Source of the DNA: Acidimicrobiales bacterium
GTDB taxonomy: Bacteria; Actinomycetota; Acidimicrobiia; Acidimicrobiales; GCA-2861595
Length of the DNA: 64,000 nucleotides
Direction: 5' to 3'
Assembly: GCA_035689115.1 (NCBI GenBank)
Contig: DASSMA010000058.1
Location: forward strand, 2,573 to 66,572
Below, in pieces: positions 936 to 63,087 of the stretch. Position numbers and translations under genes: made by a program. Position 1 is the stretch's first letter. The number at the start of each line of letters is the position of its first letter. The notes beneath the pieces were generated by a model, which searched no databases, had not been told where the DNA came from, and saw nothing but the letters and a program-made list of their open reading frames with translations.

Positions 936-1334
936 ATGGCGAAGCGGTTGCTCGGCGTGGTGCTGTTCGGCCTCCTGGCCGCCACCGCCGCCACCGCCTC
1001 CATCCTGGCTGCCTCGGCGGTGAGCACCGAGCCGGCGCCGGCCTTCGTCTCGCCCGACCGCCGCGGCGCCAGCCCGGTCCCCCCGGTGTCCCTCCCCCCC
1101 GACACCGGCGGGGCCGGGCCGGCGGCGGTCGTCACGACCCGTCCCCGGGCACCCACCAGCCCGACCACCGCCAGGCCCGCCGTGCGCGCGACGACGGTTG
1201 CGACCGCCGTGACCACCGCCGGGGCCGGTGCCACGACCACCACCGCGCCGGACTCGCCGACCTCGACCACCGAGGTCGCCCACGACGAGGACGGCCACGG
1301 CGGCGGCTCCGGCGGTGAGCCGGGGCCGGGCTGA
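936..1334 (+). CDS. secreted Thr/Pro-rich protein with a His/Gly/acidic tail
   Basis: ATG at 936 is preceded by GGAAGGAGGGA. The signal-like N-terminus is MAKRLLGVVLFGLLAATAATASILAASA. It is Thr-rich and ends in HDEDGHGGGSGGEPGPG. Confidence 0.5.
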   Translation: MAKRLLGVVLFGLLAATAATASILAASAVSTEPAPAFVSPDRRGASPVPPVSLPPDTGGAGPAAVVTTRPRAPTSPTTARPAVRATTVATAVTTAGAGATTTTAPDSPTSTTEVAHDEDGHGGGSGGEPGPG

Positions 1335-1336
1335 CC

Positions 1337-2722
1337 TCAGTCCGCCAGGGGCGGGATGTTCTGGTTGTGGCGGAACAAGTTGGTGGGATCCCAGTCCCGC
1401 TTGACGGCCTGGAGCCGGGCGTAGCGCTCGGGTCCGAAGGCCGCCTCCACCCGCCCGAGGCCCTCGTCGCCGATGAAGTTCAGGTAGGCCCGCCCGACGG
1501 CCCACGGCTTCATGCTGCCGGCCAGCCCGCGGGTGTAGGCGATGTTCGTGTCGCTGTCCGCCGGGTCCGGCCACAGGGACAGGTAGTGGATGTTCCACTT
1601 GGCGGTGCGCTGCCCGAAGGCGGTGGCGTCCTCGGGGACGCGGGCGATGGCGCCTCCTCCGGGCACGAGGATGATCTGGGTGAGCGGGGACACCGGCTTG
1701 GTGGCCCCCTCGACGAGGGTGTCCACCGCCTCGTCGGGCAACTCGTCGTAGAAGTCGGCCGTCCAGTAGTTCTGCATCCCCTCGGGGTTGGCCGGGTCGA
1801 TCATCTTCTGGAGCTCGACGTACGGCATGGGCTGCACCATGTTGAGCGCCGGCGGCCCGAACTCGAGAAGCGGCCGCAGGACCTCCTGGCCCTGCTCCAC
1901 CGGGCCGGCGTACGACACGATGACGCCGACCATCGGCTTCCCGCGGGCCGGCTCCGGGACGAAGGGGGCGGGCGGGGCGGTGATGAAGGCCACGCCGCCG
2001 CCGACCTCGTCGGGCGCCGACTCGAGGAAGCTTCGGTAGAAGCGGACCAGGTCGCCGGCCATGTGGACGGGGTAGCCGAGCATGCCTCCGAGCACGATGG
2101 GGCCGACCCGGTGGACCCGCAGGTGGAAGGCGGTGACCACGCCGAAGTTGCCGCCGCCTCCCCGCAGGGCCCAGAACAGGTCCGGGTTCTCGTCGTCGGA
2201 CGCCACCACCTGGCTGCCGTCGGCGGTGACGACCTCGGCCTTCACCAGGTTGTCGCACACGAAGCCGAGCTTGCGCTCGAGCCAGCCGCTGCCGCTCCCG
2301 AGGGCCAGGCCGGCGACCCCGGTGCCCGAGACCCGGCCGCCGGTGACGGCCAGGCCGTGGGCCTGGGTGGCGGCGTCGACCTCGCCCCAGGTGCAGCCGC
2401 CCTCGACCGTGGCCACGCGCGACTCCGGGTCGACGGAGATACTCCGCATGCCCCGCATGTCGAGGCACACGCCGGCGTCGACCACCGCCGACCCCGTGAC
2501 CCCGTGGCCACCGCCGTACACCGACAGCGGCAGGTCCTGCTCCCGGGCGAGGTTCACCACCATGGCGACGTCGCCCGCCGAGGCGCACCGGGCGATCAGC
2601 ACCGGCCGGCGGTCGATCATCCCGTTGAACACCCGGCGGGCCTCGTCGTACTGGTCGTCCCCCGGATGGATCAGCTGGCCCCCGAAGCCGGGCAACTCGA
2701 ACAGCGTCGTCCCGTCGGCCAT
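1337..2722 (-). CDS. FAD-binding oxidoreductase (FAD_binding_4 / berberine-bridge-enzyme-like)
   Basis: 461 aa ORF. It has a GGGHG-type FAD-binding region (SVYGGGHGVTGSAV) and a BBE-like C-terminus (YLNFIGDEG...RLQAVKRDWDPTNLFRHNQNI). Confidence 0.85.
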   Translation of the reverse strand: MADGTTLFELPGFGGQLIHPGDDQYDEARRVFNGMIDRRPVLIARCASAGDVAMVVNLAREQDLPLSVYGGGHGVTGSAVVDAGVCLDMRGMRSISVDPESRVATVEGGCTWGEVDAATQAHGLAVTGGRVSGTGVAGLALGSGSGWLERKLGFVCDNLVKAEVVTADGSQVVASDDENPDLFWALRGGGGNFGVVTAFHLRVHRVGPIVLGGMLGYPVHMAGDLVRFYRSFLESAPDEVGGGVAFITAPPAPFVPEPARGKPMVGVIVSYAGPVEQGQEVLRPLLEFGPPALNMVQPMPYVELQKMIDPANPEGMQNYWTADFYDELPDEAVDTLVEGATKPVSPLTQIILVPGGGAIARVPEDATAFGQRTAKWNIHYLSLWPDPADSDTNIAYTRGLAGSMKPWAVGRAYLNFIGDEGLGRVEAAFGPERYARLQAVKRDWDPTNLFRHNQNIPPLAD

Positions 2723-2764
2723 GGTTTCGCCCTCCTCGTCGGGAAAAGGGCCATGGTAGGTGTG

Positions 2765-3049
2765 TCAGTCGCGGAACGCGGTCCCGGGGTCGGGCAGCAC
2801 CGCCAGCCGCCAGCGGGCGACCAGGGTGACGAAGTTGACCGCCGCGGTGACGCCGGCCAGGACGGCCGAGTCGAGGACGGTCAGCGACAGGTGGATGCCC
2901 GCCGCCTGAGCCAGCGGGGGACTGACGAGGGCCGAGGTGAAGCCGGCGACGAACGTCCAGAACAGGCGCTCGGCCATGTCGGCCAGCCGGATGCTGGGCG
3001 CCGCCGGAGCGGTGCCGGCGACGAACGTGGTGGTGTCGGTGGTGCTCAT
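2765..3049 (-). CDS. small two-helix membrane protein, r1t-type holin-like
   Basis: 94 aa. Hydrophobic helices (FWTFVAGFTSALV, VLAGVTAAVNFVTLVA) resemble actinobacterial holin-like proteins. The assignment rests on pattern recognition only. Confidence 0.4.
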   Translation of the reverse strand: MSTTDTTTFVAGTAPAAPSIRLADMAERLFWTFVAGFTSALVSPPLAQAAGIHLSLTVLDSAVLAGVTAAVNFVTLVARWRLAVLPDPGTAFRD

Positions 3050-3127
3050 GATCGTTCCCTCCCTGGGCCGAGCTTCCGGTGTCCAGACGCGGAGGAGGGA
3101 GCGGTGATACGTCCGGTTCGGCGGCTG

Positions 3128-4261
3128 CTACCGGCTGGCGGCGGCGGTGGCGCCGCCGGCGGGGACGTCGTGGCGGTGCTTCTCGATGAACTCCACGAGC
3201 CTCGGGAAGATGTCGCGCGCCACGTTCTTGCCCATGAACGGGTCCTGGTGGCCGTAGCCGGGGAACACGTGCAGTTCGTGGCGGCCCGGGACGATGCGCT
3301 CCATCCGCTCGTGGCACACGATGTTCGAGTTGGTGAACACCTTGTTGTTCTCGCCGGTCATGAACAGCACCGGCGTCTGGATGTCCTCGGCGTAGGTGAA
3401 GTAGTCGTCGGGCAGCCGGTCGAGGGCGGGGTTCGACGGTTCGTACTTCACGGCATGGCCGGCCTGCACCTGCCGCAGCACGTGCCGGTAGTAGTTCATG
3501 CTGGTGGCGCCGTAGAGGTCGCCGCCCCGCCGGTGGGTGACCGGGTCCATGTTCTCGTGGCTGTAGAGCGCCGGCCACCCCGTGCCCCACATGAGGCTCA
3601 GCATGTGGCAGGCGGGCACGTCGCACTCGCGGTGGAACATGTCGATGACCCGGGACACCAGCTTGCCGCGCGACCACCCCGGCTCGTCGCCCCAGTGCGG
3701 GTTCAGGTAGGGGAACCCGAGGATGTTCTCGGCGACGGTGGGCGCCACGGTCAGCTTGAGCTTCGACCACGGCGGCACCCGCGGCGTGAGGGCCACGCTG
3801 TTGGCGATCACGCTCGAGATGCCGGTGACCGCCTTGCCGAACAGCGACATCATGAACGAGTTGGCGCCCAGGCAGTGGCAGATCACGTGGATGGGCTTGT
3901 CGCCGATGTGGCGGCGCATCTCGGCCACCGCCGCCGGATGGTCGAACAGGGCGCAGTCGTCCATGGTGTAGCGGTGCTTGAACAGGTTGTACGAGTGGCG
4001 GTTGCTCATCCGGAAGTCGAAGCACCACACGTCGCCGAAGCCCTGGTCGAGCAGGTAGCTCACCAGGTTGTAGTGCTCCGGCTGGATGAACATGTCGGTG
4101 GACGTGGTGAGGCCGTGGATGATGAGGATGGCCTCGCCCGCCTCGCCCCGCTGGAAGCGGAGCATGCTGAGGCCGAGCTTGTCCTCGGTGGTCAGGTAGT
4201 GGGTGCTGACCTCGGCGTCCTTCACACCCTCCAGGGTGTAGAGAGGGATCTCCCGTTCCAT
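3128..4261 (-). CDS. alpha/beta-fold hydrolase (lipase/esterase-like) with Cys at the nucleophile position
   Basis: 377 aa. It has the IIHGLTTS oxyanion region, the elbow motif VICHCLGAN and a C-terminal GYGHQDPF His region. GC content is lower than in neighbouring genes. Confidence 0.8.
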   Translation of the reverse strand: MEREIPLYTLEGVKDAEVSTHYLTTEDKLGLSMLRFQRGEAGEAILIIHGLTTSTDMFIQPEHYNLVSYLLDQGFGDVWCFDFRMSNRHSYNLFKHRYTMDDCALFDHPAAVAEMRRHIGDKPIHVICHCLGANSFMMSLFGKAVTGISSVIANSVALTPRVPPWSKLKLTVAPTVAENILGFPYLNPHWGDEPGWSRGKLVSRVIDMFHRECDVPACHMLSLMWGTGWPALYSHENMDPVTHRRGGDLYGATSMNYYRHVLRQVQAGHAVKYEPSNPALDRLPDDYFTYAEDIQTPVLFMTGENNKVFTNSNIVCHERMERIVPGRHELHVFPGYGHQDPFMGKNVARDIFPRLVEFIEKHRHDVPAGGATAAASR

Positions 4262-21273: not shown

Positions 21274-22257
21274 GTGGTGCGCCGGCAGCCCGTCCTCGTC
21301 GTCCTCCGGGCCCTCGGGCTCGGCGACCTGTGCACGGCCGTCCCCGCCCTGCGCGCCCTCGCCGACGCCTATCCCCGCCATCGCCGGGTGCTCCTCACCA
21401 CCGCCGGCGTCGCCCCCCTCGCCGCCGCCGCCGGCCTGGCCGACGAGGTCGTCACGACCGAGGACCCCCGATCCCGAGTACATAGCGTGCGGAAACCGCA
21501 CGCTATGTACTCGGGGTCGGTGGACGTGGCGGTGAACCTCCACGGCAAGGGCCCGGAGAGCCACCGGGCCCTGCTGGCGGCGGGGCCCCGCCGGCTCATC
21601 GCCTTCGGCACCGCCGGCGTGCCGGGGCCGGCGTGGCGCGCGGACGAGCACGAGGTGCACCGCTGGTGCCGGCTGCTGCGGGAGTCCGGCGTCCCCGCCG
21701 ATCCCGGCCGCCTCGACCTGGACCTGCCGGCGGCGCCCGTTCCGGACGGCGTGGCCGGCTCCACGGTGGTCCACCCCGGTGCCGCCTACCCGGCCAGGCG
21801 CTGGCCGGCGGCCCGGTGGGCGGCCGTGGCCCGGGCCGAGGCGTCCGCCGGGCGCGCCGTCGTCGTCACCGGCGGCGCCTCCGAGGCGGGCCTGGCCCGA
21901 GGCGTCGCCGCCGCCGCCGGCCTGCCGTCGTCCGCCGTCCTGGCCGGCGCCACAGGGGTGGTCGAGCTGGCGGCCGTGGTCGGCGCCGCCGGCCGGGTGG
22001 TGTGCGGCGACACCGGCGTCGCCCACCTGGCCACCGCCCTGCGCCGGCCGTCGGTCGTGCTGTTCGGTCCCGTCCCGCCCTCCTTGTGGGGACCGCCGCC
22101 CGACCGGCCGTGGCACACCGCACTGTGGGCCGGGCGCACCGGCGACCCCTGGGCGGCCAGTGTCGATGGGGGCCTGCTGGAGATCGGCGTCGACGACGTG
22201 CTGGCCGCCCTCGACGGCCTGCCCGCCGCCGAGCCGGTCGCGGCCGCGCCGGCATGA
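21274..22257 (+). CDS. second GT9 glycosyltransferase, carrying an in-frame palindromic insert
   Basis: Motifs: LVVLRALGLGDLCTAVPALRAL, DVAVNLHGKGPESH, VVHPGAAYPARRW, VVCGDTGVAHLATALRRPSVVLFGP. Residues PRSRVHSVRKPHAMYSGS are encoded by repeat A1. Confidence 0.8.
   Translation: MVRRQPVLVVLRALGLGDLCTAVPALRALADAYPRHRRVLLTTAGVAPLAAAAGLADEVVTTEDPRSRVHSVRKPHAMYSGSVDVAVNLHGKGPESHRALLAAGPRRLIAFGTAGVPGPAWRADEHEVHRWCRLLRESGVPADPGRLDLDLPAAPVPDGVAGSTVVHPGAAYPARRWPAARWAAVARAEASAGRAVVVTGGASEAGLARGVAAAAGLPSSAVLAGATGVVELAAVVGAAGRVVCGDTGVAHLATALRRPSVVLFGPVPPSLWGPPPDRPWHTALWAGRTGDPWAASVDGGLLEIGVDDVLAALDGLPAAEPVAAAPA
21468..21520. repeat. palindromic element, family A, copy 1 (inside the GT9 CDS)
   Basis: ccgatcccgagtacatagcgtgcgg-aaa-ccgcacgctatgtactcggggtcgg. 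It has 25 nt arms with one T:G position and a 3 nt loop. Confidence 0.9.
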
Positions 22258-30307: not shown

Positions 30308-30790
30308 TCATTCCGCCAGCTCGACTGCCCAGTTGGCCTCCTGGATCCGCACGTCCAGCTCCCGGTGCTGGCGGGCCAGGTCGTCGGCCTCCCGCCGGAG
30401 GTCGGCCACGGGGACGTCGGTGACCTGGCGCAGCTCGCTCCGCAGCTGGCGGGCGGCCCACATCGCCGTGCCGGGCTCGTGCTGGCCGGCGGCGGCGTCG
30501 GCCACCGCGGTCACCAGCCGGCGCCGCTGGGCCAGGGCGTCGCGGCGGGCGATGGCGTCGGTGATGGTGAACCCCGGCTCCAGCTCGGTGGCGGCGTTGG
30601 TGCGGTTGACGCGCCGAACGAGGTCCTCCGCCTCGTCGACGAGCACCCGGGCCTGGGCGAGGAGGGCGTTGGCGTCCTCCGCCGGGTGTTCGCCCTCCTG
30701 GTACCGGGCCGACGCCGCGGCCCGCGCCACCAGCTGCGCCAGCCGCTTCTGGGCGTCGCTCCGCAGGGAAAGGGCTTCCGCCAGCTTCAT
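30308..30790 (-). CDS. DIP1984-family (septicolysin-like) protein
   Basis: Starts at [20 protein letters not shown] (ATG at 30790). Later motifs are [19 protein letters not shown] and QEANW. Confidence 0.7.
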
Positions 30791-30820
30791 GGCCGAGAGT
30801 GTCGCGCCCGCACCTCGCAA

Positions 30821-30858
30821 GTAACAACGGGTTTTGGAGCCGGAAACGGTCCGGAAAC
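30821..30858 (+). promoter_or_regulatory. candidate GlnR-type box upstream of ureA
   Basis: GTAAC-n6-TTTTG-n6-GAAAC-n6-GAAAC, that is, pentamers on an exact 11 nt period, 25 nt upstream of the ureA GTG. Confidence 0.35.
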
Positions 30859-30882
30859 ACCTCCTGTCTAGCTTCCGCCGGC

Positions 30883-31185
30883 GTGAACCTGACGCCGGCC
30901 GACGTCGACAAGCTCCTGCTGTCGGTGGCCGCCATGGTCGCCCGCGACCGCCGGGCCAGGGGCGTGAAGCTCAACCTGCCGGAGGCCACCGCCCTGCTGT
31001 CGTCGTTCGTGCTGGAGGGGGCGCGCGACGGGCGCCCGGTGCGGGAGCTGATGGCCGACGGTCGCCACGTGCTCACCCGCGACGACGTGATGGAGGGAGT
31101 CCCGGAGGTGCTGCACGAGGTTCAGGTCGAGGCCACGTTCCCCGACGGCACCAAGCTGGTGACGATCCACCAGCCGATCCCGTGA
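30883..31185 (+). CDS. ureA: urease subunit gamma
   Basis: GTG start. [35 protein letters not shown]..., 100 aa. Confidence 0.9.
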
Positions 31186-31478
31186 CGGTCCCTGGGGAGG
31201 TGGTCGCCGGCGACGGCGAGGTGGAGCTGAACCCGGGCCGGGCGCGGGTGACGCTGGTGGTCGAGAACACCGGCGACCGGCCCGTGCAGGTGGGGTCCCA
31301 CTTCCACTTCGCCGACGTCAACGCCGCCCTGGCCTTCGACCGGGCGGCGGCCGACGGCATGCGCCTCGACGTCCCCGCCGGCACCGGCGTCCGCTTCGAG
31401 CCGGGCGTTTCCCGCGAGGTCACCCTCGTCGCCCTGGCCGGCGCCCGCTCCGTTCCCGGCCTCCAGCGGCGGGCCTGA
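31182..31478 (+). CDS. ureB: urease subunit beta
   Basis: GTGA overlap with ureA. Motif: PGEV...ELNPGR...[19 protein letters not shown]. Confidence 0.9.
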
Positions 31479-33181
31479 TGCGGATCGACCGCCGGCGCTA
31501 CGCCGAGCTGTACGGGCCCACGGTGGGCGACCGCGTGCGGCTGGCCGACACCGACCTGTGGATCAGCCCCACCGAGGACCGCACGGCGCCCGCCGGCCCG
31601 GGCGACGAGGTGGTGTTCGGCGGCGGCAAGGTGGTGCGGGAGTCGATGGGCCAGGCCCTCACGTCGGCCGTCGACCTGGTGATCACCAACGTGGTGGTGC
31701 TCGACCACTGGGGCGTGGTGAAGGCCGACGTGGGCGTGAAGGACGGTCGCATCACCGCCGTCGGCAAGGCCGGGAACCCCGACGTCATGGACGGCGTCGC
31801 GCCCGACCTGGTGGTGGGCCCGGAGACGGAGGTGCTGGCGGGGGAGGGGCGCATCCTCACCGCCGGCACCGTCGACTGCCACGTCCACCTCATCTGCCCC
31901 GGCGTGGTGGAGGCGGGCCTCGCCGCCGGCACCACCACGGTGGTCGGCGGCGGCACCGGGCCGGCGGAGGGCACCAAGGCCACCACCGTCACCCCCGGTG
32001 CGTTCTACCTGGCGAGGATGCTCGAGGCCCTCGACCCGTGGCCGGTCAACGTCGCCCTCCTCGGCAAGGGCAACACGGTGTCCCAGGAGGCGCTGGACGC
32101 CCAGGCCCGGGCCGGCGCCGCCGGCTTCAAGCTGCACGAGGACTGGGGCACCACGCCGGCCGCCATCGACGCCTGCCTCACCGCCTGCGACCGCCTCGGC
32201 CTGCAGGTGGCCATCCACACCGACACCCTCAACGAGGCCGGGTTCGTGGGCGACACGCTGGCCGCCATCGCCGGCCGGGGCATCCACGCCTACCACACCG
32301 AGGGTGCCGGCGGCGGCCACGCCCCCGACATCATCACCGTGGCCTCGCACCCCAACGTGCTGCCGTCGTCCACCAACCCGACCCGGCCGCACACGGTCAA
32401 CACCATCGACGAGCACCTCGACATGCTCATGGTGTGCCACCACCTCAACCCGAAGGTGGCCGAGGACGTGGCGTTCGCCGAGAGCCGCATCCGCCCGTCC
32501 ACCATCGCGGCCGAGGACTGGCTGCACGACATGGGCGCCATCTCCATGATCGGGTCCGACTCCCAGGCCATGGGCCGGGTGGGCGAGGTCGTGCTGCGCA
32601 CCTGGCAGACGGCCCACGTGATGAAGGCCCGCCGCGGCCCGCTGCCCGGCGAGCCGGTGGCCGGCGCCGACAACCTGCGGGCCCGCCGCTACGTGGCCAA
32701 GTACACCATCTGCCCGGCCGTGGCCCACGGCCTCGACGGCGAGGTCGGCTCGGTGGAGCCCGGCAAGCTGGCCGACCTGGTGCTGTGGGACCCCGCCTGG
32801 TTCGGCGTCCGCCCGCACGTGGTCGTGAAGGGCGGGATGATCGCCTGGGCGCCGATGGGCGACGCCAACGCGTCCATCCCCACGCCCCAGCCGGTGCTCT
32901 CCCGCCCCATGTTCGGCGCCACCACCGCCGGCGCCCTCTCGGTGTCCTGGGTGGCGCCGGCCGCCCTCGACGCCGGCCTGGGCGACCGCCTGGCCCTGCG
33001 CCGGCGCCTCCTCCCGGTGGGCGACACCCGCGCCGTCGGCAAGGCCCACCTGCCCGAGAACACCGCCACGCCGGCCATCGAGGTCGACCCCTCCACCTTC
33101 ACCGTCCGCATCGACGGCGTCGAGGTCGTCCCCGACCCCGTGGCGGTGCTCCCCATGGCCCAGCGCTATGCCCTCTTCTGA
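31478..33181 (+). CDS. ureC: urease subunit alpha
   Basis: 567 aa. Motifs: [27 protein letters not shown], and a C-terminus PMAQRYALF. Confidence 0.97.
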
Positions 33182-33182
33182 C

Positions 33183-33234
33183 CCGTCCCGAGTACATAGC
33201 GTGCGGAATCCGCACCCTATGTACTCGGGAACGG
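33183..33234. repeat. palindromic element, family A, copy 2
   Basis: ccgtcccgagtacatagcgtgcgg-aat-ccgcaccctatgtactcgggaacgg. The arms match copy 1 at 21468-21520. It starts 2 nt after the ureC stop. Confidence 0.9.
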
Positions 33235-33857
33235 CAGTCCTGCTCCTGTTGGGGGACGGGCGGTTCCCGGGCGGCGGGCATGCCCACTCGGGCGGGCTGG
33301 AGGCGGCGGTGGCCGAGGGACGGGTGACGGGCGCCAGCGGCCTGCGGGCCTTCCTGGAGGGGAAGCTCCACACCACCGGGGTCACCGACGCCTGGCTGGC
33401 GGCGGCCGCCTGCGCCGGCGCCGACCCGAGCCTCATGGAGGCGGAGTGCGAGGCCCGCTGCCCGTCGCCGGCGCTGCGGGCGGCCGGCCGGGCGCTCGGC
33501 CGGGGGCTGCGGCGGGCGGCGGCCCGGTCCTGGCCGGAGATCGCCGGCGTCGGCGTCGAGCAGCACCCGGTGGTGCTCGGCCTGGTGGCGCGGGCCGCCG
33601 GCCTGGCGCCGGCCGGCGCCGCCTCGCTGGCGGTGCACGGGATGCTGGCCGGCGGGGCCTCGGCCGCCGTGCGGCTCCTGCCCCTGGACATGGCCGACGC
33701 CATGGCGGTGGTGGCCGGGCTGGCGCCGGAGGCCGACGCGGTGGCGGCAGAGGCGGCGGCCCTTGCCCTGGAGGACGGGCCGGCCCGCTCGGCGCCGGTG
33801 CTGGAGCGGCGGGCCGAGGAGCACGCCCGCTGGGAGGTGCGGCTCTTTGCATCGTGA
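33219..33857 (+). CDS. ureF: urease accessory protein UreF
   Basis: [31 protein letters not shown] matches the usual UreF N-terminal length and motif. A longer in-frame ATG at 33168 overlaps the end of ureC. Confidence 0.85.
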
Positions 33858-34500
33858 CCACGACGCCGACCTGGGCGGGGCCAACGGCACGCCGCCGCCG
33901 CCGGGCGGCCCGCTGCGCGTCGGCATCGGCGGGCCGGTGGGCTCGGGCAAGACGGCGCTGGTGGCGGCGCTGTGCCGCGCCCTGGCGGGGCGCCGGCAGG
34001 TGGCCGTCGTCACCAACGACATCTACACGCGCGAGGACGCCGAGTTCCTCCTGCGGGCCGGCGTCCTCGACCCCGACCGCATCGCCAGCGTGGAGACGGG
34101 CTGCTGCCCGCACACCGCCATCCGCGACGACGTGGCCGCCAACCTCGACGCCGTCGAGGGCCTGACCGCCCGCCACCCGGGGCTCGAGCTGGTGCTGGTC
34201 GAGTCCGGCGGCGACAACCTCACCGCCACCTTCAGCCCCGCCCTCGCCGACGTGCAGCTGTTCGTGATCGACGTCGCCGGCGGGGACAAGGTGCCCCGGA
34301 AGGGCGGGCCGGGCGTCCGGGCCTCCGACCTCCTGGTGGTGAACAAGACCGACCTGGCCCCCTACGTCGGCGCCGACCTGGCCGTCATGGCGCGCGACGC
34401 CGAGCGGCAGCGCAACGGGGCGCCCACGGTGTTCCTCTCGCTGGTCGAGGACCCGCTGGCGTCGCAGGTGGCCGCCTTCGTCGAGGACAGGTTGGGCTGA
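33847..34500 (+). CDS. ureG: urease accessory GTPase UreG
   Basis: TTG at 33847 gives (M)[10 protein letters not shown]... Motifs: P-loop [18 protein letters not shown]-like [19 protein letters not shown]. Confidence 0.9.
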
Positions 34501-35252
34501 TGGACGCCGCCCTCGACGTGGCGGTGGAGGGGCACCGGGTGGTGCGCCTGGCCGCCACGCCGCCGCTGGCGGCCAAGGTGCTCCCCGGCGCTCAGCTGCT
34601 CGTCGTGGGCGCCGCCGCGTCCCTGCTCGAGGGCGACCGGCTGCAGGTGCGGCTGCGCCTCGGCCCCGGCGCCCGGCTCACGGTGCGTACGGTCGCCGCC
34701 ACCCTCGCCCACCCGTGCCCGGGCGGCGGGGAGACCCGGTTCGACGTGGAGGCCGACCTCGGCGCCGGCAGCCGCCTGGCCTGGCTGCCCGAGCCGCTGG
34801 TGGCGTGCGCCGGCTGCGGCCACGCCGGGCGGGCCCGCCTGCGCCTCGGCCCCGGCGCCGCTGCCCTGTGGTGGGAGGCGCTGGCGCTGGGCCGCACCGG
34901 CGAGGAGCCCGGCTCGCTCGACCTGCGCCTCGACGCCGACCTGGCTGGTGCGCCACTGCTGCGCGACGGCCTGATGGTTGGCGGCGGCGCAGGCGGCTGG
35001 GACGGCCCGGCGGTCCTCGACGGCGCCCGTCACCTGGGCACGCTCGCCCTGCTTGGTCTCGATGACCCGGAACCGGCCGCCGGGGTCATGCCGCTGGCTG
35101 GCCCCGGCGCCGTCGCCCGGGCGGCCGGAGCCGACGCTGCTGCCGTCGAGCACTCGCTCGGCCCTGTCCGCGGGCGCTGGAACGCATTGCTCGCGAACCC
35201 GTCACAAAGGGTAAACGTCGCAAAAGGTTGCGTACAGCAGATAGTCATGTAG
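34500..35252 (+). CDS. ureD: urease accessory protein UreD/UreH
   Basis: The ATG overlaps the ureG stop (TGATG). The assignment rests on position and size. The last 17 or so codons have low GC and look like read-through into the intergenic region. Confidence 0.75.
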   Translation: MDAALDVAVEGHRVVRLAATPPLAAKVLPGAQLLVVGAAASLLEGDRLQVRLRLGPGARLTVRTVAATLAHPCPGGGETRFDVEADLGAGSRLAWLPEPLVACAGCGHAGRARLRLGPGAAALWWEALALGRTGEEPGSLDLRLDADLAGAPLLRDGLMVGGGAGGWDGPAVLDGARHLGTLALLGLDDPEPAAGVMPLAGPGAVARAAGADAAAVEHSLGPVRGRWNALLANPSQRVNVAKGCVQQIVM

Positions 35253-35265
35253 CTGACGCCGGCAG

Positions 35266-35281
35266 GCAACGGTTGGGCAAC
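35266..35281 (+). promoter_or_regulatory. candidate GlnR-type half-box upstream of urtA
   Basis: GCAAC-n6-GCAAC (AC-n9-AC), 74 nt upstream of the urtA start. Confidence 0.25.
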
Positions 35282-35354
35282 GGGCGATTCCTAGCGTTCG
35301 TCGGGACACAGGGGCTCGACGGCCGCAGCGCCGTCAGGGAGAGGGGAGTTTGCA

Positions 35355-36662
35355 TTGGGACAGGGACGGGTCGCTTCGCGTCTGCGAGCGGGATGGAAAC
35401 CCGTGGTGGTGGGCCTGGCGCTGGCGACGACATTCGCCGCCTGCGGCAACGACAGCAACTCGGCGGCGGGGACCAAGACGACGGGTGGAAGTGACTCGAC
35501 GGCGGCGTCGGGCGGCACCATCAAGGTGGGCGTGCTCCAGTCGTTGAGCGGCACCATGTCGATCAGCGAGGTGGCGGTGAAGAACTCCGAGCTGCTCGCC
35601 ATCAAGGAGATCAACGACGCCGGCGGCGTGATGGGCAAGAAGCTCGAGCCGGTGGTGGAGGACGGCGAGTCCAAGCCCGAGGTCTTCGCCCAGAAGATCC
35701 AGAAGCTGCTGACCCAGGACGACGTGTCGGTGGTGTTCGGCGGGTGGACGTCGGCCAGCCGCAAGGCCATGAAGCCGGTGGTCGAGGGCGCCCACGGCCT
35801 GCTCTTCTACCCCGTGCAGTACGAGGGCCTCGAGGTGTCGCCGAACATCTTCTACACCGGCGCCACCACCAACCAGCAGATCGTCCCGGCCCTCGACTAC
35901 CTGAAGGAGAAGGGCCTCACCAAGGTCTTCCTGGTCGGTTCGGACTACGTGTTCCCGCGCACCGCCAACAAGGAGATCAAGGCCTACGCGGCGGCCAACG
36001 GCCTCCAGATCCTCGGCGAGGAGTACCTCCAGCTGGGCGACACCAACGTGCAGGGCATCGTCCAGAAGGTGCTCGACGCCAAGCCCCAGGTCGTGTTCAA
36101 CACCCTGAACGGCGACTCCAACGTGGCGTTCTTCAAGGAGCTCAAGGCCAAGGGCAACACGCCGGACAAGATCCAGACCGTCTCGGTGTCGATCGCCGAG
36201 GAAGAGGTCGGCGGCGTCGGCGTCGACAACCTCGCCGGCCACCTGGTGGCGTGGAACTACTACCAGACCACCGACCTGCCCAAGAACAAGGAGTTCGTGG
36301 CAGGCTTCCAGAAGGAGTACGGCGCCGACAAGCACACCGACGACCCCATCGAGGCCGGGTACAACTCGGTCTACATCTGGAAGGCGGCCGTGGAGAAGGC
36401 CGGCTCCTTCGACGTCGCCAAGGTGATCCCCGCCGCCGCCGGGATCGAGCTGGACACGCCGGAGGGCCACCTCACGGTCCACGCTTCCAACCACCACGTC
36501 TACAAGACGGCCCGTATCGGCATGGTGAACAGCAACGGGCTCATCGACGAGGTGTGGAACTCGGGCCAGCCGGTCGCCCCGGACCCGTGCCTCGACACCT
36601 ACCCGTGGGCCAAGGGCCTGGCCACCGGCGAGGCCAGAGCCGAGTGCGACGCCGCCAAGTAG
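35355..36662 (+). CDS. urtA: urea ABC transporter substrate-binding lipoprotein
   Basis: TTG start after GGGAGAGGGGAG. Lipobox LATTFAACG. The body is a UrtA/LivJ-type periplasmic binding protein sequence. Confidence 0.9.
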   Translation: MGQGRVASRLRAGWKPVVVGLALATTFAACGNDSNSAAGTKTTGGSDSTAASGGTIKVGVLQSLSGTMSISEVAVKNSELLAIKEINDAGGVMGKKLEPVVEDGESKPEVFAQKIQKLLTQDDVSVVFGGWTSASRKAMKPVVEGAHGLLFYPVQYEGLEVSPNIFYTGATTNQQIVPALDYLKEKGLTKVFLVGSDYVFPRTANKEIKAYAAANGLQILGEEYLQLGDTNVQGIVQKVLDAKPQVVFNTLNGDSNVAFFKELKAKGNTPDKIQTVSVSIAEEEVGGVGVDNLAGHLVAWNYYQTTDLPKNKEFVAGFQKEYGADKHTDDPIEAGYNSVYIWKAAVEKAGSFDVAKVIPAAAGIELDTPEGHLTVHASNHHVYKTARIGMVNSNGLIDEVWNSGQPVAPDPCLDTYPWAKGLATGEARAECDAAK

Positions 36663-63021: not shown

Positions 63022-63042
63022 GGCCCCTCCTCGTTGACGCGG

Positions 63043-63087
63043 TCTGGGGACGTTTTCGATCGCTCTGCGATCGGAAACGTCCCGAGA
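63043..63087. repeat. palindromic element, family B, copy 2
   Basis: tctggggacgttttcgatcgc-tct-gcgatcggaaacgtcccgaga. It lies 22 nt upstream of the DUF559 start codon. Confidence 0.85.

What the first reader, a model, noticed from the sequence alone, without database searches (positions are those of the whole stretch)
33183..33234. Second copy of the palindrome fills the ureC-ureF junction and carries the ureF start codon in its stem
Copy A2 starts 2 nt after the ureC stop (33179-33181). The ATG at 33219, inside the right arm (ccctATGtactcggg), gives a UreF N-terminus [26 protein letters not shown]. That matches the length and motif of typical UreF proteins, which run M-xxx-AVLL..D.R.P.G.H.HSGG. 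The element therefore supplies the start codon and the first codons of ureF while burying them in a hairpin of about 24 bp. A ribosome terminating on ureC would melt the left arm, which would enforce ureC-to-ureF translational coupling. A longer in-frame ATG at 33168 also reads through the whole element.
Basis: partly seen in the sequence, partly recalled or inferred. Interest (0 to 1): 0.65.

Follow-up and report, generated by a model that had tools for sequence, protein, structure and literature searches.

The report
Hairpin repeat replaced the ureF start
A short mobile-looking hairpin repeat that normally sits just behind stop codons in a group of soil actinobacteria has landed on the junction of two urease genes and removed the second gene's original start codon; this is a tidy example of a known phenomenon, not a new mechanism.

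Summary
A 45-nt near-perfect palindrome (core 33186-33230, extended 33183-33234) starts 4 nt (core) or 1 nt (extended) after the ureC stop. It folds at -42.7 kcal/mol (z -7.3) and holds an in-frame ATG (33219) in its right arm.

It is one copy of a dispersed REP-like family:
- There is a second copy in the window (21472-21516, in frame in a GT9 gene).
- There are 21 copies in one actinobacterial MAG and one in a second MAG.
- Depth over the element in the source soil run is about 100-250 times that of the flanks.

Copies sit 2-25 nt behind stop codons or supply the stop themselves.

Eleven element-free relatives have ureC-ureF spacers of 0-84 nt. Their UreF begins M/V-(T/S)-T-A-(A/V)-LLLL, so MYSG comes from the element and the ancestral start codon is gone.

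The coupling mechanism is not supported. A ribosome at the ureC stop reaches only the foot of the stem, and ATG 33219 stays paired in constrained folds.

The window alone has TAT instead of TAC in the ureC tail. This creates ATG 33168, 11 nt before the stop and in the ureF frame. I favour 33168 as the main start, with read-through of the hairpin, and 33219 as the fallback. The case is ordinary in kind and a new repeat family in detail.

The parts
31478..33181 (+). ureC (urease alpha subunit), stop TGA at 33179-33181
   Evidence: Pfam Urease_alpha 5.5e-48 and Amidohydro_1 1.1e-68. GC3 is 1.00 up to the stop. Only 4 of 567 sense codons end in A or T.
33168..33170 (+). Derived ATG in the ureF frame, formed by ureC codons TAT|GCC, 11 nt before the ureC stop (14-nt overlap). 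Favoured ureF start.
   Evidence: It is the first ATG/GTG/TTG in this frame after 109 start-free codons. Eleven relatives have TAC here. TAT is 2.9% of Tyr codons, and NAT|G junctions are 0.13% of codon junctions in the window's genes. It is not sequestered (unpaired probability 0.16-0.44).
33183..33234 (.).
   Evidence: Fold.
33186..33230 (.). 45-nt family core: left arm 33186-33206, loop AAT 33207-33209, right arm 33210-33230, C.C mismatch 33200/33216
   Evidence: The 24-copy alignment has 95% mean identity, with GAGTACATAG and CTATGTACTC invariant. 94.7% of cells are paired, and 4 pairs carry compensatory changes.
33201..33203 (+). In-frame GTG in the left arm. This is the start chosen by the gene caller behind the database protein (218 aa).
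   Evidence: P0001 is 218 aa and 100% identical. The codon is fully paired in all folds.
33219..33221 (+). Fallback or minor start.
   Evidence: It pairs with 33195-33197 and stays paired under every ribosome-footprint constraint tried. No Shine-Dalgarno motif lies at a usable distance (read from the sequence).
33231..33857 (+). Ancestral part of ureF (from codon T-A-V-LLLL onward), stop TGA at 33855-33857
   Evidence: Pfam UreF 2e-19. The alignment with 29 homologues is 65-80% identical, with all invariant columns kept. L077 has ..S-T-A-V-LLLL.
33847..33849 (+). Probable ureG start (TTG), overlapping ureF by 11 nt. A native example in the same operon of a start placed upstream of the preceding stop.
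   Evidence: Sequence. Relatives' called genes show the same 11-nt overlap (L062 10632 vs 10642, L071, L073).
21472..21516 (.). Second copy of the element, in frame (same frame 1, ..SRVHSVRKPHAMYSG..) inside a GT9 heptosyltransferase-like gene
   Evidence: The GC3 phase is the same on both sides. Pfam Glyco_transf_9 1.9e-25.

Best explanation
The palindrome is one copy of a dispersed, REP-like hairpin repeat family of an uncultured soil actinobacterial lineage (UreF/UreC relatives are Acidimicrobiia-like). Members normally lie a few bases behind stop codons.

This copy landed behind the ureC stop. In compact relatives the ureF start lies only 0-5 nt further on, so the insertion removed the ancestral GTG/ATG and codon 2 of ureF (shown by comparison with relatives).

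ureF is intact and is still translated in the frame that runs open through the element. I infer that most initiation now happens at ATG 33168. This start was created by a lineage-specific synonymous TAC>TAT change in the ureC tail, 11 nt upstream of the ureC stop. Ribosomes finishing ureC re-initiate there, as at the 11-nt ureF/ureG overlap. As elongating ribosomes they then unwind and translate the hairpin, giving UreF a 17-residue N-terminal extension ([21 protein letters not shown]..).

The element's own ATG 33219 probably served as the emergency start right after insertion and may still contribute at a low level.

As a side effect, the hairpin 4 nt behind the ureC stop may protect ureABC message ends and damp ureFGD expression (inferred by analogy with REPs).
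For: Family:
- The arm pattern occurs 4 times in the window against 0 expected.
- 21 copies lie on 17 contigs of MAG JAHWLA01 and one in a Dermatophilaceae MAG. There are 24 in all with the window's two, at 95% mean identity.
- Summed depth over the element in soil run X1 is 1300-3500, against 9-14 for the organism's unique contigs. Many different loose flanks adjoin it.

Placement:
- In 21 of 22 copies analysed, a GC3-supported gene ends 2-25 nt before the core or inside it. None lies between divergent genes.

Insertion removed the start:
- Eleven element-free relatives have spacers of 0, 3, 3, 3, 5, 15, 22, 37, 51, 52 and 84 nt, and N-termini M/V-(T/S)-T-A-(A/V)-LLLL.
- The window keeps T-A-V-LLLL directly after the element, and no start codon remains there.

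ATG 33168:
- It is the only start codon in that frame in 110 codons.
- All 11 relatives have TAC, including three with the same YALF tail.
- TAT is 5 of 172 Tyr codons, and the gene has 4 of 567 A/T-ending codons.
- It lies outside the hairpin and is the start nearest the stop. Scanning ribosomes prefer the nearest start, and structure just behind the stop lowers downstream coupling (review PMC12548453).

Read-through is tolerated:
- The same frame is translated in the GT9 copy.
- The same frame is open from an ATGA start in a cobT-like gene of L025.
Against: - There is no direct evidence for any start: no proteomics, Ribo-seq or RNA data for this uncultured organism.
- The TAT argument is a posteriori and rests on one lineage (p roughly 0.03 for the codon alone).
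- ATG 33168 has no Shine-Dalgarno motif.
- In E. coli reporters, coupling falls as overlap grows from -4 to -25 nt (PMC12548453).
- A start at 33219 gives an N-terminus closer in length to homologues.
- At the moment of insertion ATG 33168 presumably did not exist, so an element-internal start must have worked at least weakly.
- The exact ancestral junction and the insertion mechanism are unknown. A few ancestral bases are missing, which a simple insertion does not explain.
Confidence: 0.5

Rival explanations
1. First reader's model. ureF starts at ATG 33219 in the right arm. The hairpin silences it unless a ribosome terminating on ureC melts the left arm, so the element enforces ureC-to-ureF coupling by RNA unfolding.
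For: - The product is only 2 residues longer than the homologue consensus.
- ATG is invariant in all 24 copies.
- It must have been usable when the ancestral start was lost.
- A relative (L065) has an 11-bp stem that pairs the bases right behind the ureC stop with its ureF GTG. In that case unfolding by the terminating ribosome is geometrically possible.
- RNA unfolding is an accepted coupling model (PMC12548453).
Against: - The partner of the ATG (33195-33197) lies 14-16 nt past the stop, beyond the reach of the terminating ribosome.
- ATG 33219 stays paired when 33164-33194 is forced open, and the residual structure is still strong.
- The unpaired probability is 0.001 or less.
- The nearest purine run (GGA 33205-07) is 11 nt upstream and sits in the loop.
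- Structure just behind the upstream stop correlated negatively with coupling in a library screen (PMC12548453).
- The model does not explain the derived ATG 33168.
Confidence: 0.3
2. ureF starts at GTG 33201 in the left arm, as the automatic gene caller chose (218-aa product).
For: It is in frame, it is the caller's choice (P0001), and it lies 19 nt behind the stop.
Against: It is fully paired in every fold. It has no Shine-Dalgarno motif. Nothing comparative singles it out. The caller took no account of the hairpin.
Confidence: 0.07
3. The insertion is mildly deleterious and unresolved. ureF (and by polarity ureG and ureD) is poorly expressed, the hairpin acts mainly as a barrier or processing site between ureABC and ureFGD, and ATG 33168 is a chance codon.
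For: - The hairpin is very strong.
- REPs within 15 nt of a stop stall ribosomes and lower expression in E. coli (Liang et al. 2015, as summarised in PMC12306157).
- The repeat family looks selfish (many copies with varied contexts).
Against: - ureF keeps every invariant column of 29 homologues and a GC3 of 0.9-1.0.
- ureG and ureD follow intact.
- A second strain about 10% diverged appears to carry a palindrome at the same site, so the state has persisted (tentative).
- There is no T-tract, and the terminator scan finds nothing.
Confidence: 0.1

Closest known systems
REP elements (repetitive extragenic palindromes), including intragenic and ORF-terminal copies (Di Nocera et al. 2013, PMC3733652)
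   Same: - It is a short, high-copy, near-identical hairpin repeat.
- It is found between convergent and tandem genes and not between divergent ones.
- It lies mostly just downstream of coding regions.
- Some copies supply a TAG stop, some are in frame inside genes, and some sit at ORF N-termini where the true start is uncertain.
- Most copies are flanked by CGTC..GACG.
   Different: - The stem is 21-24 bp with a 3-nt loop. The described CGTC families 1-4 have 8-9 bp stems and 4-5 nt loops.
- The whole unit is a single symmetric palindrome, not a tagged asymmetric stem-loop or dimer.
- The host is an actinobacterium, a phylum that paper's text does not mention.
- No associated transposase is known.
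REPs within 15 nt of a stop codon that regulate translation (Liang, Rudd and Deutscher 2015, cited through PMC12306157)
   Same: The hairpin begins 1-4 nt behind the ureC stop, and most family copies lie 2-12 nt behind a stop.
   Different: That effect lowers output of the upstream gene through stalling and tmRNA. It has only been shown in E. coli and was not tested here.
Mycobacterial interspersed repetitive units (MIRUs)
   Same: They are actinobacterial repeats in intercistronic gaps of operons, with reading frames that bridge the flanking stop and start.
   Different: MIRUs are 40-100 bp direct, often tandem, units and not perfect palindromes. Here there is a single hairpin unit.
Rickettsia palindromic elements (RPEs)
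   Same: They are palindromic repeats found in frame inside protein genes, adding a peptide segment (PMC3733652 links RPE-4/6 to CGTC repeats).
   Different: RPEs are 100-150 bp, occur in an obligate intracellular proteobacterium, and have no sequence similarity to this element.
Translational coupling by termination and re-initiation at overlapping start/stop (review PMC12548453)
   Same: The proposed use of ATG 33168 (-14 spacing) mirrors the -11 ureF/ureG and -1 ureB/ureC junctions of the same operon.
   Different: Here the overlap start looks secondarily evolved, to bypass an inserted hairpin.

Membership tests
REP-like dispersed palindromic repeats (broad sense) | Many near-identical copies dispersed in a genome | tested here: met
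   There are 2 copies in 64 kb of the window, 21 on 17 contigs of MAG JAHWLA01 and 1 in a second MAG. Depth over the element in run X1 is 100-250 times the flank depth.
REP-like dispersed palindromic repeats (broad sense) | Imperfect palindrome able to form a stable stem-loop, with the structure kept among copies | tested here: met
   -42.7 kcal/mol, z -7.25. 94.7% of cells are paired over 18 distinct copies, and 4 pairs have compensatory changes.
REP-like dispersed palindromic repeats (broad sense) | Mostly extragenic, downstream of genes, between convergent or tandem genes | tested here: met
   21 of 22 copies lie next to or on a stop codon. None lies between divergent genes.
CGTC-tagged REP families 1-4 (Di Nocera 2013) | CGTC tetranucleotide at one end | tested here: inconclusive
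   Most copies read cGTCCCGAG..CTCGGGACg. However, the motif occurs symmetrically at both ends as part of the palindrome. The two window copies have it on one side (A2) or neither side (A1).
CGTC-tagged REP families 1-4 (Di Nocera 2013) | Stem of 8-9 bp, loop of 4-5 nt, short unpaired tail (CCA) | tested here: not met
   The stem is 21 bp, the loop is 3 nt, and there is no CCA tail. The definition is from PMC3733652.
GTAG REPs / REPtrons | GTAG at one end and an associated RAYT (Y1 HUH transposase) gene | tested here: not met
   No terminal GTAG is present. The gene bracketed by two copies in L017 is a malate dehydrogenase.
MITE | Terminal inverted repeats plus a target-site duplication, derived from an IS | tested here: inconclusive
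   The whole unit is an inverted repeat. No consistent direct duplication appears in the flanks of the 22 copies analysed. No parent IS was found.
Intrinsic terminator | GC-rich hairpin followed by a T-tract | tested here: not met
   The terminator scan of 30500-36000 finds none. The tail is AACGGCAGTCC.
Any Rfam family | Match at the gathering score | tested here: not met
   Only generic hairpin (miRNA precursor) matches at 16-22 bits, against gathering scores of 57-197.
UreF (gene downstream) | Pfam UreF domain and the conserved N-terminal LLLL.DGR.P.GGH.HSGG motif | tested here: met

The most novel reading that the evidence does not exclude
The repeat family is built to survive on gene boundaries. 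Its invariant blocks carry an ATG in one open frame and a TAG in another, in both orientations. A copy landing on a stop/start junction of a compact operon can therefore hand a stop to the upstream gene and a start to the downstream gene. Its long hairpin then makes the downstream gene strictly dependent on upstream translation. On this reading, ureF here (and cobT in MAG JAHWLA01) really start at the element's ATG, and the element acts as a portable coupling module.
Probability: 0.12. Interest if true: 0.6.

Novelty: new member of a known kind. Interest (0 to 1): 0.3.

Why it matters
It shows concretely how a compact operon copes when a selfish hairpin repeat lands on a start codon. The repeat's own ATG and a newly evolved upstream ATG are both available as replacements.

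It also flags an annotation problem. Three different starts are defensible, and the automatic caller picked the least likely one.

The family itself (21-bp stem, invariant GAGTACATAG blocks, Acidimicrobiia-like hosts) is undescribed as far as these searches reach. It could be useful as a marker of that lineage and as a test case for what REP-like hairpins close behind stop codons do in actinobacteria.

It does not reveal a new mechanism.

Tried and rejected
I therefore have no copy count or transposase search for the window's own genome.
- Two scans of JGI metagenome contigs found nothing: one for the junction-specific pattern and one for the general element pattern. This left no closer relatives carrying the insertion.
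- Laying contigs of run X1 showed a second strain sharing 33146-33183 and then differing inside the palindrome. The tool does not return its letters, so I could not read whether it keeps TAT or which inner stem it has.
- Rfam gave only sub-threshold hairpin hits.
- The plasmid and phage collections gave no match. Other windows of this scan gave none.
- I considered that the Ser-to-Ala change at UreC residue -3 was part of creating the ATG. I rejected this because Ala is common there (19 of 120 homologues, three close ones checked at DNA level). Only the synonymous C>T is specific.
- I considered a target-site duplication or a stop codon belonging to the element. The flanks are C-rich on the left and G-rich on the right (weak outer arms), but no consistent duplication appears.
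- I considered membership of the CGTC-REP families and rejected it on stem and loop size.

Full report
**What is there**

The stretch 33183-33234 reads CCGTCCCGAGTACATAGCGTGCGGAATCCGCACCCTATGTACTCGGGAACGG. The repeat finder reports arms 33186-33207 and 33209-33230, 22 nt and 95% complementary.

Folded as RNA, 33170-33250 gives -42.7 kcal/mol. Dinucleotide shuffles give -19.9 +/- 3.2 (z -7.25, none of 200 as stable). The stem has 21 core pairs, one C.C mismatch (33200/33216), an AAU loop, and three extra outer pairs across a bulged A.

- Upstream is ureC (31478-33181; Urease_alpha and Amidohydro_1).
- Downstream is ureF (Pfam UreF), followed by ureG and ureD.
- The GC3 phase switches from the ureC frame to the ureF frame across the element.
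- Three in-frame start candidates exist. ATG 33168 overlaps the ureC tail by 14 nt. GTG 33201 is in the left arm and is the start used for the 218-aa database protein P0001. ATG 33219 is in the right arm.

**It is a repeat family**

The 21-nt arm occurs four times in the window (two palindromes) against 0.00 expected. The other copy, 21472-21516, lies inside a GT9 heptosyltransferase-like gene. The GC3 phase is identical on both sides, so it is read in frame as ..SRVHSVRKPHAMYSG...

A scan of one genome per prokaryote species with a 16-base core pattern returned 61 loci. Most are single chance half-sites. Seventeen contigs of one fragmented MAG (JAHWLA01, 'Actinomycetota bacterium 0813_bin7') and one contig of a Dermatophilaceae MAG carry the full palindrome.

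With a mismatch scan I count 24 copies in hand, with 95% mean column identity. The blocks GAGTACATAG and CTATGTACTC, which contain the TAG and the ATG, are invariant in all 24. Two variant copies (L039 4799-4843, L024) change the inner stem on both sides and keep the hairpin. Overall 94.7% of cells pair and four pairs show compensatory changes.

In the soil run that holds the window (X1), summed contig depth over the element is 1300-3500, against 9-14 for the organism's unique contigs. Dozens of contigs enter the element from different flanks. The family is therefore abundant in that community.

Negative searches:
- No exact match in JGI metagenome contigs.
- No match in plasmid or phage collections.
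- No Rfam family.
- Nothing in other windows of this scan.

**Where copies sit**

Using GC3 phase to call the flanking genes, 21 of 22 copies have a gene ending 2-25 nt before the core (typically 2-12) or inside it. Contexts are convergent or tandem, never divergent.

- Several copies give their internal TAG to the gene that runs into them (..LPST*): L027, L053, L055, L060, the diverged 3' copy of L025, and minus-strand genes in L024 and L039.
- In tandem pairs the element hugs the upstream stop, and the downstream start is usually 16-38 nt further on.
- One copy closely parallels the ureF case. In L025, a cobT-like gene (DBI_PRT, 8.5e-133) has an ATGA stop/start overlap, eight further codons, the element in the same frame, and then the conserved ..IVPLD.. 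N-terminus, with no start codon after the element.

This habit of sitting just behind stop codons explains why the element is where it is. In an operon whose next start follows the stop almost at once, the insertion was bound to hit that start.

**What the junction looked like before**

I fetched eleven distinct relatives (UreF 74-82% identical in the alignment, Acidimicrobiia-like by the names attached to hits). None has the element.

Their ureC-ureF spacers are 0, 3, 3, 3, 5, 15, 22, 37, 51, 52 and 84 nt. The compact ones read TGA gcc GTG ACG ACC GCC.. or TAG GTG ACC ACC GCC... The consensus N-terminus of 29 homologues is [24 protein letters not shown]. L077 has V-S-T-A-V-LLLL.

The window has ..CTCGGGA ACG GCA GTC CTG CTC CTG TTG, that is T-A-V-LLLL directly after the element. 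No start codon remains between the element and that motif. So the ancestral start codon and codon 2 are gone, and MYSG is element sequence.

The longer spacers in relatives hold other hairpins:
- L073 has an unrelated 56-nt palindrome (-43 kcal/mol, z -5.7). Its right arm also contains the ATG chosen by the gene caller.
- L065 has an 11-bp stem that pairs the bases right after the ureC stop with the ureF GTG.

The junction is thus a recurrent landing place.

**Which start is used**

The geometry does not fit.

With the stop codon in the A site, the P-site codon starts at 33176. The ribosome's helicase point is about 11 nt downstream of that, and its 3' edge about 15 nt downstream (established knowledge: Takyar, Hickerson and Noller 2005). 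That places them at 33186-33191. The bases that pair with ATG 33219 are 33195-33197.

I folded 33150-33270 with 33164 up to 33186, 33188, 33191 and, generously, 33194 held single-stranded. ATG 33219 and GTG 33201 remain fully paired in every case. In the unconstrained ensemble their unpaired probabilities are 0.001 or less, against 0.16-0.44 for ATG 33168. Neither has a Shine-Dalgarno motif at a usable distance.

A recent review gives three relevant points (PMC12548453):
- Scanning ribosomes take the start nearest the stop.
- Structure immediately downstream of the upstream stop correlated negatively with coupling.
- Overlaps down to about -25 nt can still couple, with falling efficiency.

ATG 33168 is the nearest start (11 nt upstream of the stop) and lies outside the hairpin. 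A ribosome that begins there meets the hairpin as an elongating ribosome, which can unwind it. The same operon already uses such an arrangement at ureF/ureG (TTG 33847, 11-nt overlap, and relatives).

**ATG 33168 looks evolved**

- It is formed by ureC codons TAT|GCC.
- All eleven relatives have TAC, including the three checked that share the Y-A-L-F tail.
- Ala at that position is common (19 of 120 homologues), so the only lineage-specific change is the synonymous C>T.
- In this 74.6% G+C window, TAT is 5 of 172 Tyr codons. ATGs of the NAT|G type occur at 14 of 11,100 codon junctions.
- ureC has only four A/T-ending sense codons in 567, the other three being GGT.
- The ureF frame has no ATG, GTG or TTG in the 109 codons before it.

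This is a posteriori and rests on one lineage. A chance probability of a few percent, in the one lineage that lost its native start, still makes selection for this ATG the better reading.

A second strain in run X1 shares 33146-33183 exactly. The evidence is a 38-nt unitig whose depth of 21.7 equals the sum of the two strains. It then differs inside the palindrome. This suggests the state is old, but I could not read its letters.

**Best account and rivals**

I put about 0.5 on the following account. A REP-like insertion destroyed the native start. ureF is now mainly started at ATG 33168 by re-initiation and read through the hairpin. ATG 33219 was the stop-gap at the time of insertion and remains a possible minor start.

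It gives the more homologue-like N-terminus and must have worked at least weakly once.
- GTG 33201 gets about 0.07.
- A poorly expressed, unresolved state gets about 0.1. Against it stands an intact, well-conserved ureF.

A likely side effect, by analogy with E. coli REPs within 15 nt of stop codons (Liang et al. 2015 via PMC12306157) and with REP-stabilised messages, is lower ureFGD relative to ureABC. This was not tested. There is no T-tract, and no terminator was predicted.

**Comparison with known elements**

Behaviour matches REPs as surveyed by Di Nocera et al. (PMC3733652):
- downstream of genes;
- convergent or tandem contexts;
- stop codons donated to flanking ORFs;
- intragenic in-frame copies;
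- copies at ORF N-termini where the real start is doubtful.

Most copies are flanked by CGTC..GACG. The described CGTC families have 8-9 bp stems, 4-5 nt loops and a CCA tail, which this element does not have. I therefore do not file it there. No GTAG tag, no consistent target duplication, no parent IS and no RAYT could be shown. MIRUs and RPEs are functional analogues only.

**Verdict**

- This is a new repeat family of a known kind.
- The most interesting detail is the apparently compensatory start codon in the ureC tail.

Noticed in passing
L073:1464-1527: A relative (UreF 76% identical) has a different, unrelated 56-nt palindrome (-43 kcal/mol, z -5.7) in the same ureC-ureF gap. Its gene caller also placed the ureF start on an ATG in the right arm. 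A GTG at the foot of the stem would give the consensus-like MAALLLL.
   Followed up: partly
L065:118-164: In the closest relative (82%), the 11 bases right after the ureC stop pair with the ureF GTG start region (AAAUCUGGUCG / UGACCAGAUUU). A terminating ribosome could plausibly open this short stem, making it a natural RNA-unfolding coupling candidate.
   Followed up: partly
L025:1821-2994 (minus strand gene): A cobT-like gene (DBI_PRT) in MAG JAHWLA01 carries one copy of the element in its 5' end (frame 1, after an ATGA overlap start). A diverged copy at its 3' end supplies the stop (..ALPST*).
   Followed up: partly
L027:126-170, L053:6918-6962, L055:319-363, L060:1551-1595, L024:3155-3199, L039:7869-7913: The element's internal TAG (or its mirror CTA) serves as the stop codon of a flanking gene, adding ..PST* to the protein.
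   Followed up: partly
L039:4799-4843 and L024:3155-3199: Variant copies have a different inner stem that stays complementary (GCCGGCG/CGCCGGC; GGGTGCGG/CCGCACCC), while the outer GAGTACATAG/CTATGTACTC blocks are unchanged. This suggests subfamilies with a conserved outer recognition part.
   Followed up: partly
flanks of most copies, e.g. L026:1700-1770, L047:7105-7175: The left flanks are C-rich (CCACCGCCCG) and the right flanks G-rich (CGGGCGGTGG), as if weaker outer arms extend the unit to about 65-70 nt. In several tandem cases the G-rich right flank sits where the next gene's ribosome-binding site would be (L027, L051).
   Followed up: no
window:62081-62128 and 63040-63087: A second, unrelated palindromic repeat pair (92% identical, CGATCG cores) brackets about 900 nt.
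   Followed up: no
window:33146-33214 in run X1: A second strain at about half the depth shares the ureC tail exactly and then differs within the palindrome. Logan unitigs of both strains break at the palindrome centre.
   Followed up: partly
window:33102-33137 (minus strand): A weak Guanidine-II riboswitch match (15.7 bits against a gathering score of 32, E 0.42) lies inside ureC coding sequence. It is almost certainly chance.
   Followed up: no
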